From Promethearchaeota archaeon (GTDB lineage Archaea > Asgardarchaeota > Lokiarchaeia > Sigyniarchaeales > SOKP01), in assembly GCA_048940925.1 (NCBI GenBank), contig JBHLOC010000018.1, positions 22,501 to 86,500 on the forward strand: a stretch of DNA of 64,000 bases, given 5' to 3'. Below are positions 28,548 through 42,184 of the stretch, one piece after another (position 1 is the stretch's first letter; every line of letters begins with the position of its first letter). The notes beneath the pieces are model-generated. The model was not told the origin of the DNA. It saw only the letters and a list, made by a program, of their open reading frames with translations, and made no database searches. A program made the position numbers and the translations under genes.

Positions 28548-29069
28548 ATGCCTAAGAAATTTATACTCAAGATCCTTACAGCGGGAGAAGGGGGTGTTGG
28601 CAAAACTACGCTCTTACATAGATACGTAGAAGGTAAATTCTCATCAGAAACGAAAATGACTATTGGAGTAGAGTTTTTTCTGAAAGAAGTCGAAATTGAT
28701 CAAAAACAATGCACCCTCCAACTCTGGGATTTTGGAGGACAAGAGAGATTTCGTTTTTTACTTGAAAGTTATGTATTAGGAGCGAAAGGTGCATTACTAA
28801 TGTTCGATTTGACTAGGATCTCAAGCCTTGAAAATCTAAATCAATGGATAAGGATCGTTCGAAAGGGAGATCCAAACCTCCCAGTCCTCTTTCTTGGTAC
28901 TAAATTGGATTTGGAAAATGAGATTCAGGTTGATGATGATTATGCAAAATCTTTTTTAAATGAATTTAATTTAATGGGCTTTTTAAAAATCTCTTCAAAA
29001 ACTGGTGAAAATGTTAGTGAGGCTTTTAGTATATTAACAAAAAAAATATTAGAGCGACAGACTTATTGA
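28548..29069 (+). CDS. Rab-like small GTPase
   Basis: GEGGVGKT, TIGVEF, WDFGGQERF, TKLD, SSK. Confidence 0.93.
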   Translation: MPKKFILKILTAGEGGVGKTTLLHRYVEGKFSSETKMTIGVEFFLKEVEIDQKQCTLQLWDFGGQERFRFLLESYVLGAKGALLMFDLTRISSLENLNQWIRIVRKGDPNLPVLFLGTKLDLENEIQVDDDYAKSFLNEFNLMGFLKISSKTGENVSEAFSILTKKILERQTY

Positions 29070-29666: not shown

Positions 29667-30182
29667 TTGTCCAAACCAATGATTATAAAGTGTATTACAG
29701 CAGGAGATGGTGGTGTGGGTAAAACAACACTCCTTTATCGATATGTGGAGGGAAGATTTTTAGCAGACACACGTATGACCTTAGGTGTAGAGTTTTTCAT
29801 AAAAGAAGTAGATGTTGGAAGGAAAAAGATAAATTTACAGGTGTGGGATTTTGGAGGTCAGGAGCATTTTCGACCATTATTAAAAAATTATGCATTGGGG
29901 GCAAGGGGAGCATTATTACTTTTTGATCTTACTAGACCATCAAGCTTAGACAAAATTGACCAATGGGTTAATATCTGTAGAGAAGATAACCCCAATATAC
30001 CTATTATTTTTTTGGGTACAAAACTAGATTTAACTGATTTAATATCTGTTGATGACAGTTATGCATTGAGATTTAAAACTAAGTATAATTTTCTTGATTA
30101 TTTAAAAATCTCCTCGAAAACTGGTGAAAATGTGAATTTAGCATTTAAGATGTTAGCAAAAGAAATCATAAGGAATTTATAA
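29667..30182 (+). CDS. Rab-like small GTPase, paralog of 28548-29069
   Basis: GDGGVGKT, TLGVEF, WDFGGQ, TKLD, SSK. Confidence 0.93.
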   Translation: MSKPMIIKCITAGDGGVGKTTLLYRYVEGRFLADTRMTLGVEFFIKEVDVGRKKINLQVWDFGGQEHFRPLLKNYALGARGALLLFDLTRPSSLDKIDQWVNICREDNPNIPIIFLGTKLDLTDLISVDDSYALRFKTKYNFLDYLKISSKTGENVNLAFKMLAKEIIRNL

Positions 30183-37889: not shown

Positions 37890-38099
37890 TTATTCCTCTT
37901 CTTCTTCTTCCAATAGTTCTTCTATTTTATCTTCTAATTCTTCAATTTTATCGTCGATTTCAGCGATTTTATTATATGTTTCACATGTCTCGCACGCATC
38001 GGGTTCCTCGCATTTTGGGAGAGTATCACAAATTTCCTCTAATTTATCTCTCTCATCTAATAGTTTTTCAATTTCCTCTTCTAGTTTTTCAATACTCAT
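37890..38099 (-). CDS. small acidic coiled-coil protein with four Cys
   Basis: Heptad-rich helices either side of C-x5-C-x5-C-x2-C; AGGTGTG SD. Confidence 0.75.
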   Translation of the reverse strand: MSIEKLEEEIEKLLDERDKLEEICDTLPKCEEPDACETCETYNKIAEIDDKIEELEDKIEELLEEEEEE

Positions 38100-38168: not shown

Positions 38169-38999
38169 TTATCTAAAAAAAGTCAAATACACATATGTAA
38201 CTATCAATATCGCTATGATGATCAAGAAAAGAATAATAAAACATTTCCTTGATTTCTTACTTTTTATAAATTCTTTCCCTTCTAAGATAAGAGTTTCTTG
38301 ATCACCATTATCCAGTGTTGTATCTTTAATTAAAAACTGCCCAGTATCAGTTTGAATTATCTCTAATTCTTCCCTTTTTTGCAATTTTTTAGTTAATTTT
38401 CTGAATTCCTTTACTGATTTCTTAATTAAATCTTGAGTTTCTTTGGGTAAATCATCATCCCGAATTTCAAGATCTTGTGTCATAAAATCTAAACCAACAG
38501 TTAACTTGTAATCTGCTTCAAACTCTTTATTAACAAAAGATTTGATTAATGAAGACTTCCCTACAGCAGCTTCCCCAACAAGCAATATTTTAAACCTAAA
38601 ATGATCAGAATTGATAATTTCACCTAACCTTGCTTTAAAATCTAGCAATGAGATTAATGCTAACCTATAAAATAACTTATCTACGTTATTTTTTTCTAAG
38701 GCTGATGTTTCTATAAACTCAAATAGATTGTATTGATTTAATTTTTGAAGTATTTTATCTTTTGGAACTGCTTCTCCGATATCTTTCTTTAAATCATTTT
38801 TATTTCCAACTAAGATAATTGGGATGTTTCCTGAATGTTCACGTAAATCTTTAAAATATTCGTCAATATTTTCGAGGGTATCAGGTCTAGAAAGATCAAA
38901 TACTAATGCAACTGTAGCAACTCCGTTAAAAAAATCAGTTTTAAAGAAGCTAAACCGCTCTTGACCTGCGATATCCCAAAGACTTAGAGTTACTCTCAT
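38169..38999 (-). CDS. circularly permuted Rab-like GTPase with C-terminal membrane anchor
   Basis: Order WDIAGQERF (G3), GNKND (G4), ETSA (G5), GEAAVGKS (G1), TVGLDF (G2), charged helix, hydrophobic tail. Confidence 0.85.
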   Translation of the reverse strand: MRVTLSLWDIAGQERFSFFKTDFFNGVATVALVFDLSRPDTLENIDEYFKDLREHSGNIPIILVGNKNDLKKDIGEAVPKDKILQKLNQYNLFEFIETSALEKNNVDKLFYRLALISLLDFKARLGEIINSDHFRFKILLVGEAAVGKSSLIKSFVNKEFEADYKLTVGLDFMTQDLEIRDDDLPKETQDLIKKSVKEFRKLTKKLQKREELEIIQTDTGQFLIKDTTLDNGDQETLILEGKEFIKSKKSRKCFIILFLIIIAILIVTYVYLTFFR

Positions 39000-39136
39000 T
39001 AAAGGTTCAGACCTCTACTTTTGGTTCAATAAGATAATTTTAATTGTCATTATTATAAAATATTAAAAATTGATATAATTTAAAATTAAAAAAGCGATTT
39101 CAATTTATTGAATAAATAATTAGAATTCTATATTTA

Positions 39137-39649
39137 CTATAATTTTTTCTCTAAAATTTCTAGCATGTCTTCTTCGAGAGTAGGATGCCATTTTGGATTT
39201 TCAACTATAGTGCCTATAAGATCACCAGTTTTGTTAAAGAAATAGAATGTTGGGATTGCTTTTAAGTCAAATTTTGGATCAACAGCTTCAGGTGGAGAAC
39301 GTTTTTTATGCCATCTAGGCTCTCCGGGTTTATCTATAGCGTTTACCATAATGCCATACAAAATTTGTAATGTTACATCATCTGAACTTATGGTTTTCAT
39401 TATTTTTATCATATAAGGCACATTCTTAGTGCAATCAGGGCACCAATCTGCACCCAATACAACTATTTTTAACTTTTGATTTTTTTCTTTCAATATATTT
39501 TGGATTTTTTCAATAATTTCTGACTTTGGTGTATAATTTTCAAGATTGCTGTTGATTATTGGCTTATCTTTATTGAGATTTATATACTCATCAGGAGTTA
39601 AAGTTGGAGATATTAGATCGTAATATTTTAATTCACTCATATTTAACAT
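39137..39649 (-). CDS. thioredoxin-like protein
   Basis: GADWCPDC, AIPTFYF. Confidence 0.85.
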   Translation of the reverse strand: MLNMSELKYYDLISPTLTPDEYINLNKDKPIINSNLENYTPKSEIIEKIQNILKEKNQKLKIVVLGADWCPDCTKNVPYMIKIMKTISSDDVTLQILYGIMVNAIDKPGEPRWHKKRSPPEAVDPKFDLKAIPTFYFFNKTGDLIGTIVENPKWHPTLEEDMLEILEKKL

Positions 39650-41653: not shown

Positions 41654-42184
41654 TTATTCTCTTTTTTTACTTTTTAAGATTAATTTTGTTAATAAATTGA
41701 ATATTTTGTGGACATTTTCTCCAGTTTTAGAGCTACATTCTATAAAACCATCAGCATCTTTGAGGTTTGCTATCTCCATTGCCTTTCTAGTTGAGATCTC
41801 TTTAAGATGCATTAAATCAGTTTTTCCACCAACAAAGATGATAGGTATATCATATTCAATTTCTTTTTTAACAATCTCAAACCAATCATCTACATGAGCT
41901 AATGATCCATAATTAGTAATATCATACATAAAAATAGCTCCACTTGCGCCTCGGATGTAAGAAGGAAAAAGAAATCTGAATCTTTCCTCTCCAGCAAAAT
42001 CCCAAATTTGAAGTTTTACCATTTCATCATCTACTTCAATTGCTTTCAATAAAAAGTCTACACCTAATGTCATTTGAATGTTTTCCTTAAATAGATTCGT
42101 TAAGAATCTGTGAGCTAAAGTAGTCTTTCCGGTTTTACTATCTCCAAATAGTACTATTTTGAAAGTTGAAGTATAAGATGCCAA
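41654..42184 (-). CDS. Rab-like small GTPase
   Basis: GDSKTGKT, TLGVDF, WDFAGEERF, GKTD, CSSK. Confidence 0.92.
   Translation of the reverse strand: MASYTSTFKIVLFGDSKTGKTTLAHRFLTNLFKENIQMTLGVDFLLKAIEVDDEMVKLQIWDFAGEERFRFLFPSYIRGASGAIFMYDITNYGSLAHVDDWFEIVKKEIEYDIPIIFVGGKTDLMHLKEISTRKAMEIANLKDADGFIECSSKTGENVHKIFNLLTKLILKSKKRE

What the first reader, a model, noticed from the sequence alone, without database searches (positions are those of the whole stretch)
38169..38999. Tail-anchored Rab-like GTPase with permuted motif order G3-G4-G5-G1-G2
Seen: the protein starts at strand beta3 (RVTLSLWDIAGQERF), runs through NKND and ETSA to helix 5, then a short linker leads to FKILLVGEAAVGKS and YKLTVGLDF, a charged helix and a ~20-aa hydrophobic tail. 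An in-frame TAG and a GAGGT SD lie just upstream and no G1 sequence is visible there, so it is not simply a truncated call. Each motif occurs exactly once and the break is in the beta2-beta3 hairpin. Established: YlqF/YawG, RsgA and cpRAS permutants use G4-G5-G1-G2-G3, and eukaryotic Rabs attach by prenylation. Inference: a differently permuted small GTPase whose switch I is tethered to a membrane anchor.
Basis: partly seen in the sequence, partly recalled or inferred. Interest (0 to 1): 0.8.

Follow-up and report, generated by a model that had tools for sequence, protein, structure and literature searches.

The report
Circularly permuted, tail-anchored Asgard Rab-like GTPase
This Asgard archaeal gene encodes a real, conserved Rab-like GTP switch whose two sequence halves are swapped and which carries its own membrane anchor. 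The same swap was described in 2008 for the eukaryotic cpRAS domain, so this is a separate archaeal case, not found in the papers searched, and not a new topology.

Summary
The ORF at window 38169-38999 (minus strand, 276 aa) matches Pfam Ras and human Rab11B in two swapped pieces. It starts at strand beta3 and ends after beta2, giving the order G3-G4-G5-G1-G2, then a charged helix, a disordered linker and a C-terminal transmembrane helix.

It is not a truncation. An in-frame TAG lies six codons upstream, and all 120 closest database homologues have the same order with all catalytic residues invariant.

The isolated domain folds in AlphaFold2 as one confident unit (pTM 0.85).

Un-permuted trees make the family monophyletic (support 97-99). 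It sits among canonical-order GTPases that include this genome's own paralogues. Uninterrupted full-length copies were found in 70 of 400 Asgard genomes, all in two families of one order. The anchored form is inferred to be ancestral, and soluble forms of about 220 aa are later losses.

cpRAS (Elias & Novotny 2008) already has the order G3-G4-G5-G1-G2. Published CPRas sequences carry Ras-type motifs, while this family carries Rab-type motifs, so the two permutations are probably independent.

No paper in the library describes the archaeal family. The scan has noted it before on other genomes, with the same conclusion.

The parts
38169..38999 (-). Whole gene: 276-aa circularly permuted, tail-anchored Rab-like GTPase (P0001)
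38640..38999 (-). Segment A, residues 1-120: beta3 to alpha5 of the Ras fold. It carries G3 (DIAGQ 9-13, nt 38961-38975), G4 (NKND 66-69, nt 38793-38804) and G5 (ETSA 97-100, nt 38700-38711).
   Evidence: Pfam Ras profile 47-157. Rab11B 57-163. VIA-align places model 1-122 on RhoA/Rab11 residues about 51-181 with Z 12.5-13 and rmsd 1.6-1.9 A.
38604..38639 (-). Connector, residues 121-132, joining alpha5 to beta1. It is conserved (R124, G126, E127, then H133 F134 R135 F136) and holds a short predicted strand at 128-130.
   Evidence: Alignments A1/A3; AF2 secondary structure
38457..38603 (-). Segment B, residues 133-181: beta1, P-loop G1 (GEAAVGKS 142-149, nt 38553-38576), alpha1, switch I with G2 Thr167 (nt 38499-38501), and beta2
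   Evidence: Rab11B 4-50 aligns to query 133-179; MMR_HSR1 profile 1-46
38346..38444 (-). Charged helix, residues 186-218, entered through the conserved D-x-x-L-P-x-E motif that follows beta2
   Evidence: AF2 helix 186-218; P185 and E187 nearly invariant
38256..38345 (-). Low-confidence, probably disordered linker, residues 219-248
   Evidence: pLDDT below 50 over 218-250
38175..38243 (-). C-terminal transmembrane helix, residues 253-275. Basic residues precede it and one residue follows it, which is the tail-anchor arrangement.
   Evidence: Hydropathy 3.12; AF2 helix 249-275
39011..39017 (-). In-frame TAG (39015-39017) overlapping GAGGT (39011-39015), just upstream of the ATG. This excludes an upstream coding extension.

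Best explanation
The gene encodes a functional small GTPase of the Rab-like branch of the Ras superfamily whose domain is circularly permuted. The chain begins at beta3 (G3) and runs through G4, G5 and alpha5. A conserved 12-residue connector then leads into beta1/P-loop (G1), alpha1, switch I (G2) and beta2. The two pieces are predicted to close into one ordinary Ras-like domain with a complete nucleotide pocket. From the end of beta2 the chain continues as a charged helix, a flexible linker and a single C-terminal TM helix, so the G domain is permanently tethered to the cytoplasmic face of the membrane. Shown here: the permutation, conservation of all catalytic residues, a single predicted domain, one origin of the family, and its restriction to two families of one Asgard order. 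Inferred: it binds and hydrolyses GTP and works as a membrane-resident switch that recruits effectors. The TM anchor would replace the prenyl tail that Asgard Rab-like proteins lack, so it could not cycle on and off the membrane as Rab does with GDI. Also inferred: it arose within the Asgard paralogue expansion, most simply by fusion of two adjacent tandem GTPase genes followed by loss of both ends, independently of eukaryotic cpRAS. The anchored form is inferred to be ancestral, and the soluble forms of about 215-245 aa in the same genus are secondary losses.
For: Swapped two-piece matches to Pfam Ras and to Rab11B. All top 60 PDB sequence hits are Rabs, including Thorarchaeota Rab 7ezb. 120/120 top homologues show the order G3..G4..G5..G1. 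D9, G12, Q13, K67, D69, S99, G142, G147, K148 and T167 are invariant in both alignments; N66 and T98 are invariant in A1 and at least 90% conserved in A3. AF2 of residues 1-185 gives pLDDT 84.4 and pTM 0.85, with low confidence only at 14-19 (switch II) and 159-169 (switch I). The full-length model has strands and helices in the expected Ras order, then helix 186-218 and a TM helix. This genome has about 69 canonical-order paralogues and only one permuted gene. Trees of un-permuted units recover one permuted clade with support 99 (FastTree), 99 and 97 (IQ-TREE). That clade sits inside a 96-supported group with canonical-order proteins, including own paralogues C48_8631 and C48_9320, which are adjacent tandem genes. 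The five named eukaryotic Rab-type proteins that the tree print-out lists lie further away. Uninterrupted full-length matches occur in 70 of 400 Asgard genomes, all in families f1 and f2 of one order. In the window's genus, 49 of 53 other genomes have it, and the four without are 58-88% complete. Stop-to-stop frames exceed the proteins by only a few codons. Parsimony on the family tree gives an anchored root. Published CPRas sequences carry Ras signatures (DTAGQEEYS.MRDQY, YDPTIEDSYRKQ) and a 5-8 residue connector, against WD[IT][AG]GQERF, YKLT[VI]GLDF and a 12-13 residue connector here.
Against: There are no biochemical data, so GTP binding, hydrolysis, membrane insertion and oligomeric state are all inferred. 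Model coordinates could not be inspected. Closure of the fold therefore rests on pTM and pLDDT, not on observed contacts between beta1 and beta3/beta4. Structure aligners matched only residues 1-122 because they align sequentially. No extant tandem-fusion intermediate was found next to the clade in the trees. No CPRas sequence could be put in a tree, so independence from cpRAS rests on motif comparison and on where the clade sits. Many close relatives lack the TM helix, so the anchor is not essential to the family.
Confidence: 0.85

Rival explanations
1. The fold closes only between chains. Segment B of one molecule completes segment A of another, giving a domain-swapped dimer or oligomer, perhaps assisted by the long charged helix.
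For: The natural beta2-beta3 hairpin is cut and a long helix follows beta2. AF2 monomer predictions cannot exclude swapping.
Against: The monomer model of the isolated domain is confident overall (pTM 0.85). The connector is long enough (12 residues) and conserved. In Ras folds the alpha5 C-terminus and the beta1 N-terminus lie on the same face (established geometry).
Confidence: 0.1
2. The archaeal family and eukaryotic cpRAS/CPRas share one permutation event, either by vertical inheritance into eukaryotes or by transfer.
For: The motif order and break point are identical. A 2026 paper lists CPRas as potentially present in LECA (PMC13393502). Both connectors contain P-R-x-G.
Against: CPRas domains are unmistakably Ras-type in switch I, switch II and beta1, and the authors place them inside the eukaryotic RAS family. 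The Asgard clade is Rab-type and sits among canonical-order GTPases that include this genome's paralogues. The family was found in only one Asgard order. It has no VWA or macroglobulin partner domains.
Confidence: 0.05
3. It is a broken gene: a strain-specific deletion or truncation of a tandem two-GTPase protein, or a mis-called start.
For: Tandem GTPase proteins and adjacent tandem GTPase genes exist and align across their junction.
Against: There is an in-frame stop six codons upstream and no room for 55 further residues. The same architecture and the same N-terminus occur in 120/120 homologues and in 70 genomes, with all catalytic residues conserved.
Confidence: 0.02

Closest known systems
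cpRAS domain of eukaryotic CPRas proteins (Elias & Novotny 2008, Biol Direct 3:21, PMC2430557)
   Same: Both are Ras-superfamily GTPase domains permuted to G3-G4-G5-G1-G2. The chain break is in the beta2-beta3 hairpin, and alpha5 is joined to beta1 by a short connector. All G motifs are retained.
   Different: cpRAS is found only in eukaryotes and is Ras-family in sequence (TIE-type G2, DTAGQEEYS switch II). It is embedded in 840-970 aa cpRAS-VWA proteins or in one 3933-aa macroglobulin-like protein, and its connector is 5-8 residues. The archaeal protein is Rab-like and stand-alone (about 215-280 aa) or fused to C-terminal membrane modules. Its connector is a conserved 12-13 residues, and it was found in only one Asgard order.
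Canonical Asgard Rab-like GTPases, for example Thorarchaeota Rab (PDB 7ezb; Tran et al. 2024, PMC10933270)
   Same: They share the sequence family and the same G motifs. They are also the nearest relatives in the trees, and like this protein they lack C-terminal prenylation cysteines.
   Different: They have the canonical order G1-G5 and no membrane anchor. Tran et al. report no membrane targeting and no prenylation signal. This family is permuted and was ancestrally TM-anchored.
YlqF/YawG/RsgA (YRG) circularly permuted GTPases
   Same: They are natural circular permutants of the P-loop GTPase fold.
   Different: Their order is G4-G5-G1-G2-G3, with the break after beta3 and before alpha2. They are ancient ribosome-assembly factors found in all domains of life. 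The only match here is a sub-threshold colinear hit of the G4-G5-G1-G2 part to YqeH (21 bits against a cut-off of 297).

Membership tests
Ras-superfamily small GTPase | All five G motifs (GxxxxGK[ST], switch I Thr, DxxG, NKxD, SA[KL]) with Ras-like spacing | tested here: met
   Motifs are at 142-149, T167, 9-12, 66-69 and 98-100, and they are invariant or at least 90% conserved in the family alignments of 127 and 131 sequences. Pfam Ras E = 1.4e-37.
Ras-superfamily small GTPase | Ras-like alpha/beta fold forming one domain | tested here: met
   AF2 domain model has pTM 0.85. Residues 1-122 superpose on Rho/Rab structures at Z 12.5-13 and rmsd 1.6-1.9 A. The placement of segment B could not be inspected directly.
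Ras-superfamily small GTPase | Binds and hydrolyses GTP | not testable with these tools
   Needs purified protein.
Rab family proper | RabF1-F5 signature motifs | tested here: inconclusive
   RabF1-like VGLDF is present. The other positions are only loosely Rab-like (TLSLW, RFSFFK, FFNGV, LVFDLS). All top 60 PDB sequence hits are Rabs.
Rab family proper | C-terminal prenylatable cysteines | tested here: not met
   The protein ends in a TM helix plus Arg, and the only Cys in the tail (C253) is at the start of that helix.
cpRAS (CPRas) | Motif order G3-G4-G5-G1-G2 with the break between beta2 and beta3 | tested here: met
   against the definition in PMC2430557.
cpRAS (CPRas) | RAS-family sequence signatures (TIE G2, Ras switch II) | tested here: not met
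   G2 here is T-V-G-L-D-F and switch II is GQERFSFF. Published CPRas sequences have PTIEDSY and GQEEYS.MRDQY.
cpRAS (CPRas) | Combination with a VWA/Sec23-24 trunk domain or macroglobulin-like domains, in eukaryotes | tested here: not met
   No such Pfam domains in this protein or in the longer relatives. All named sources are Asgard MAGs.
cpRAS (CPRas) | Common descent with CPRas domains, shown by phylogeny | not tested
   No CPRas sequence was available by reference, so only motif-level reading of the supplement was possible.
YlqF/YawG/RsgA cpGTPases | Motif order G4-G5-G1-G2-G3 | tested here: not met
   G3 precedes G4 at the N-terminus. The YqeH hit is far below its cut-off.
Tail-anchored membrane protein | A single TM helix at the extreme C-terminus, no N-terminal signal sequence, and the bulk of the protein cytosolic | tested here: met
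   TM 253-275 of 276 residues, with KSKKSRK before it. The N-terminus is a beta strand of the G domain.
Tail-anchored membrane protein | Post-translational insertion, for example by Get3/ArsA | not testable with these tools
   Two full-length ArsA-family genes are present in the genome, but that family matched in all 14 control genomes, so this says little.

The most novel reading that the evidence does not exclude
Cutting the beta2-beta3 hairpin and hanging the membrane stalk on the end of beta2 may make this a mechanically new kind of switch. Nucleotide-dependent movement of switch I and the interswitch strand, as in the Arf interswitch toggle, would pass straight into the conserved LPxE motif and charged helix, and so into the membrane tether. 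The switch would then change the posture or partners of the stalk without cycling on and off the membrane.
Probability: 0.15. Interest if true: 0.75.

Novelty: new variant of a known kind. Interest (0 to 1): 0.55.

Why it matters
The G3-G4-G5-G1-G2 permutation was once argued to be incompatible with folding. Until now it was documented only in the rare eukaryotic cpRAS domain, for which the cpRAS paper offered only a homology model. A second, independent and strongly conserved natural case shows that the Ras fold tolerates this cut repeatedly. This case is also a small stand-alone protein, well suited to crystallography and nucleotide assays.

It also bears on an open question about Asgard archaea. 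Their many Rab-like GTPases lack prenylation signals, and the ones tested showed no membrane targeting (PMC10933270). Here one lineage solved membrane attachment with an intrinsic tail anchor, or with larger C-terminal membrane modules. [quoted passage not shown]

Tried and rejected
1. Partner test. Complex prediction of the GTPase (1-225) with the conserved downstream 69-aa acidic Cys4 protein gave no verdict and no support. This is not evidence either way.

2. Co-occurrence. The 69-aa gene lies downstream of the GTPase in 13 of 14 loci from the window's genus and in 3 of 8 more distant loci. Its distribution does not follow the GTPase, though. It is present in g4 (37/42 genomes) where the GTPase is almost absent (1/42), and it was not found in g3 or g8, where the GTPase is present. 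In g4 and g5 a protein of about 680 aa occupies the slot. I therefore treat the adjacency as inherited synteny and not as a functional pair.

4. A search of longer proteins (484-2000 aa) found eukaryotic multi-GTPase and Rab-fusion proteins but no CPRas and no close tandem precursor.

5. Tandem two-GTPase proteins do not fall next to the permuted clade in the trees.

6. P0237, a 243-aa protein with the same A-B order, groups with eukaryotic Rab-type proteins and not with the Asgard clade. It is a separate event or a gene-model artefact.

7. The HMM search at E <= 1e-30 also picks up canonical paralogues (segment A only) and matches that read through stops across two adjacent genes. I therefore counted only uninterrupted full-length matches.

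8. Foldseek and VIA-align align sequentially and cannot show where segment B sits.

9. NCBIfam has no specific model for the family, only the generic small_GTP domain.

10. Eight literature searches found no description of an archaeal permuted Rab-like GTPase.

Full report
**The observation**

The ORF at window 38169..38999 on the minus strand encodes 276 residues. Pfam Ras (PF00071, E = 1.4e-37) matches it in two stretches. Residues 2-114 align to profile positions 47-157 of 162. The N-terminal part of GTPase profiles (MMR_HSR1 positions 1-46) matches residues 137-182.

A sequence search of the PDB shows the swap directly. Against human Rab11B (4ojk_A), query 133-179 aligns with Rab11B 4-50 and query 5-113 aligns with Rab11B 57-163. 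The chain is therefore cut in the beta2-beta3 hairpin and rejoined between alpha5 and beta1.

Each G motif occurs once:
- G3: DIAGQ, residues 9-13
- G4: NKND, residues 66-69
- G5: ETSA, residues 97-100
- G1: GEAAVGKS, residues 142-149
- G2: Thr167

The internal spacings equal those of Ras (K148+12 = F160, K148+19 = T167).

Upstream of the ATG there is an in-frame TAG six codons away (39015-39017), overlapping a GAGGT. Then comes a 137-bp AT-rich spacer before a thioredoxin-like gene. Nothing upstream could encode the roughly 55 residues of a G1-G2 segment.

The C-terminus is KSKKSRK followed by a 23-residue hydrophobic helix (253-275) and one Arg. The mean hydropathy is 3.12 over 19 residues.

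**Not a local accident**

A search of 5.8 billion proteins returned thousands of GTPase hits. The 120 best are 57-83% identical and 208-278 aa long, and where named they come from Asgard MAGs. All 120 have the motif order G3, G4, G5, G1, and they start one to a few residues before the beta3 strand.

In alignments of 127 and 131 sequences these residues are invariant in both: D9, G12, Q13 (the catalytic Gln), K67, D69, S99, G142, G147, K148 and T167. N66 and T98 are invariant in the first alignment and at least 90% conserved in the second.

The connector is also conserved (R124, G126, E127, H133, F134, R135, F136), and so is a D-x-x-L-P-x-E motif after beta2. Stop-to-stop frames in other genomes exceed the proteins by only a few codons.

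The exhaustive representative search found a second, more divergent group of 280-755 aa (P0127, P0129, P0130, P0132, P0139, P0143, P0146). In these the same permuted domain is followed by one of two things. Some have a TM tail. Others have a proline-rich linker, a conserved domain with no Pfam match, and hydrophobic helices. Where named, they are also Asgard.

**Fold**

AlphaFold2 on the full protein gives the Ras elements in the order beta3, alpha2, beta4, alpha3, beta5, alpha4, beta6, alpha5. Next come a short strand in the connector, then beta1, alpha1 and beta2. After that come a helix at 186-218, a low-confidence stretch at 218-250 and a helix at 249-275 (pLDDT 78.4, pTM 0.69).

The domain alone (residues 1-185) gives pLDDT 84.4 and pTM 0.85. 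Low confidence is confined to residues 14-19 and 159-169, which are switch II and switch I. A pTM that high over 185 residues requires the 50-residue G1-G2 piece to be placed confidently against the 120-residue piece. I read this as one closed domain.

I could not inspect coordinates. Foldseek and VIA-align, which align sequentially, matched only residues 1-122 to residues about 51-181 of Rho and Rab structures (Z 12.5-13, rmsd 1.6-1.9 A). A domain-swapped oligomer is therefore not excluded.

**Origin and distribution**

The genome is 4.8 Mb with 29.6% GC. It holds about 69 small-GTPase ORFs in canonical order and exactly one permuted gene.

I cut every protein into the two homologous segments, joined them in canonical order and built trees. 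Both permuted groups together form one clade. Support was 99 with FastTree on 212 rows, SH-aLRT 99 with IQ-TREE on 107 rows, and 97 on 172 rows.

That clade sits inside a 96-supported group with canonical-order proteins. Five of these are from this genome, and two of them (C48_8631 and C48_9320) are adjacent tandem genes. The five named eukaryotic Rab-type proteins that the tree print-out lists lie further out. The root is not known, so "nested" is relative. Even so, the nearest relatives are ordinary GTPases, several of them this genome's own paralogues.

With a family profile, uninterrupted full-length matches occurred in 70 of 400 genomes of the phylum. All 70 are in families f1 and f2 of one order. 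In the window's genus, 49 of 53 other genomes have one, and the four without are 58-88% complete. Elsewhere the profile hit only segment A of canonical genes, or read through stops across two adjacent genes.

Those adjacent tandem genes are the obvious raw material for permutation by fusion and terminal loss. That route is an inference, and no intermediate was found.

Mapping the hydrophobic tail on the family tree gives an anchored ancestor. The soluble forms, about 215-245 aa, make up two large derived clades. Each genome listed has one copy, either anchored or soluble.

**Comparison with what is known**

The cpRAS paper states the opposite. cpRAS was introduced precisely as a G3-G4-G5-G1-G2 domain with the beta2-beta3 turn broken, correcting an earlier claim that such a permutant could not fold (PMC2430557). 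The topology is therefore already known.

Family membership is a separate question. CPRas sequences in that paper's supplement carry Ras signatures throughout (DTAGQEEYS.MRDQY, YDPTIEDSYRKQ, YK.V..G.GGVGKS). Their connector is 5-8 residues, and they sit in 840-970 aa VWA proteins of eukaryotes.

The archaeal family has WD[IT][AG]GQERF and YKLT[VI]GLDF, and a 12-13 residue connector. It has no such partner domains, and its top 60 PDB sequence hits are all Rabs. Together with the tree position, this makes an independent origin much the more likely reading.

I could not place a CPRas domain in a tree, because no reference to one was available. A 2026 paper notes that CPRas may go back to LECA. 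Both connectors contain P-R-x-G, which I regard as a probable helix-cap coincidence.

The YlqF/YawG/RsgA type has a different order and break point, and the only hit to it is far below threshold.

Eight literature searches found no description of an archaeal permuted Rab-like GTPase. The structural study of Asgard Rab-like proteins mentions neither permutation nor TM anchors. It stresses that those proteins lack prenylation signals and did not go to membranes.

**How it most likely works**

All nucleotide-binding and catalytic residues are present and conserved, so the protein is most likely an active GTP/GDP switch (inferred). In Ras folds the beta2-beta3 turn, the N-terminus and the alpha5 C-terminus all lie on the face away from the nucleotide (textbook geometry). 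The new termini therefore leave the switch face free. The tether leaves from roughly the same side as the hypervariable tail of a normal Rab.

The G domain would be held at the cytoplasmic face by a helix, a flexible linker and a tail anchor. A protein anchored this way cannot be extracted by a GDI-like factor. Its regulation would have to act on effector binding and not on membrane cycling (inferred).

A more adventurous idea is that the freed beta2 strand transmits nucleotide state into the conserved LPxE helix. This is possible but untested.

**Surroundings**

The gene lies between a Thioredoxin_9 gene and a conserved 69-aa acidic protein with a C-x5-C-x5-C-x2-C knuckle between two helices. 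Acyl-CoA dehydrogenase and aldehyde:ferredoxin oxidoreductase genes lie beyond them.

The small gene keeps its place downstream of the GTPase in 13 of 14 loci from the window's genus and in 3 of 8 more distant loci. It is also present in 37 of 42 genomes of a genus that almost entirely lacks the GTPase, and it was not found in two genera that have the GTPase. There the slot is filled by a protein of about 680 aa. I therefore do not propose it as a partner.

**Earlier notes of this scan**

I had already reached the cpRAS paper and the family picture before looking at the earlier notes. The notes show that the same family was reported on other genomes with the same verdict. They agree with this report and did not change it.

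**Verdict**

This is a real, conserved, lineage-restricted Asgard family of circularly permuted Rab-like GTPases that was ancestrally membrane-anchored. It is a new variant of a known kind (the cpRAS-type permutation), probably independent in origin and not found in the papers searched. It is of moderate interest for protein-fold evolution and for the membrane biology of Asgard GTPases.

Noticed in passing
window 37890-38099 (-): A 69-aa very acidic protein: two predicted helices around an invariant C-D-T-L-x-x-C...D-x-C-x-T-C knuckle, ending in a poly-Glu tail, with no Pfam or NCBIfam family. It is present in 115 of 135 genomes of the family, usually next to an acyl-CoA dehydrogenase gene. 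Its distribution does not follow the permuted GTPase.
   Followed up: yes
window 39137-39649 (-): A Thioredoxin_9-type protein with a CPDC motif lies directly upstream of the GTPase. The same neighbour is found in related genomes (L011, L022, L023, L035, L037).
   Followed up: partly
window 28548-29069 (+), 29667-30182 (+), 41654-42184 (-): Three canonical-order small GTPase genes lie in the same window. They belong to a set of about 69 paralogues in this genome, and many paralogues sit in adjacent tandem pairs (for example contig C48 8631-9167 and 9320-9856).
   Followed up: partly
L025:5989-7785 (+) (P0130), and P0127, P0129, P0143, P0146: Divergent members of the permuted family carry a conserved C-terminal domain with no Pfam match (motifs such as FPGC..VP, DARKD..A.F.ITP, TPTKVVKQT). 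Hydrophobic helices follow the domain, and a proline-rich linker precedes it.
   Followed up: partly
L035:3633-5669 (+), L037:1926-3980 (+), L022:3154-5205 (+): A conserved protein of about 680 aa, with no Pfam hit on record for the L022 copy and a coiled-coil C-terminus, sits between the thioredoxin gene and the 69-aa gene. In genera that lack the permuted GTPase it occupies that slot, and in L022 it lies beside the GTPase.
   Followed up: no
P0001 residues 123-126, compared with the CPRas connectors in PMC2430557 Additional file 1: The archaeal connector (consensus K-P-R-L-G-E) and the CPRas connector (T-P-R-x-G) both contain P-R-x-G just after alpha5. This is probably a convergent helix cap and turn, but it is unexplained.
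   Followed up: no
P0237 (243 aa, source unknown): A Rab-type protein with the same A-B order that groups with eukaryotic Rab-type proteins and not with the Asgard clade. It is either a third independent permutation or a gene-model artefact across tandem Rab genes.
   Followed up: partly
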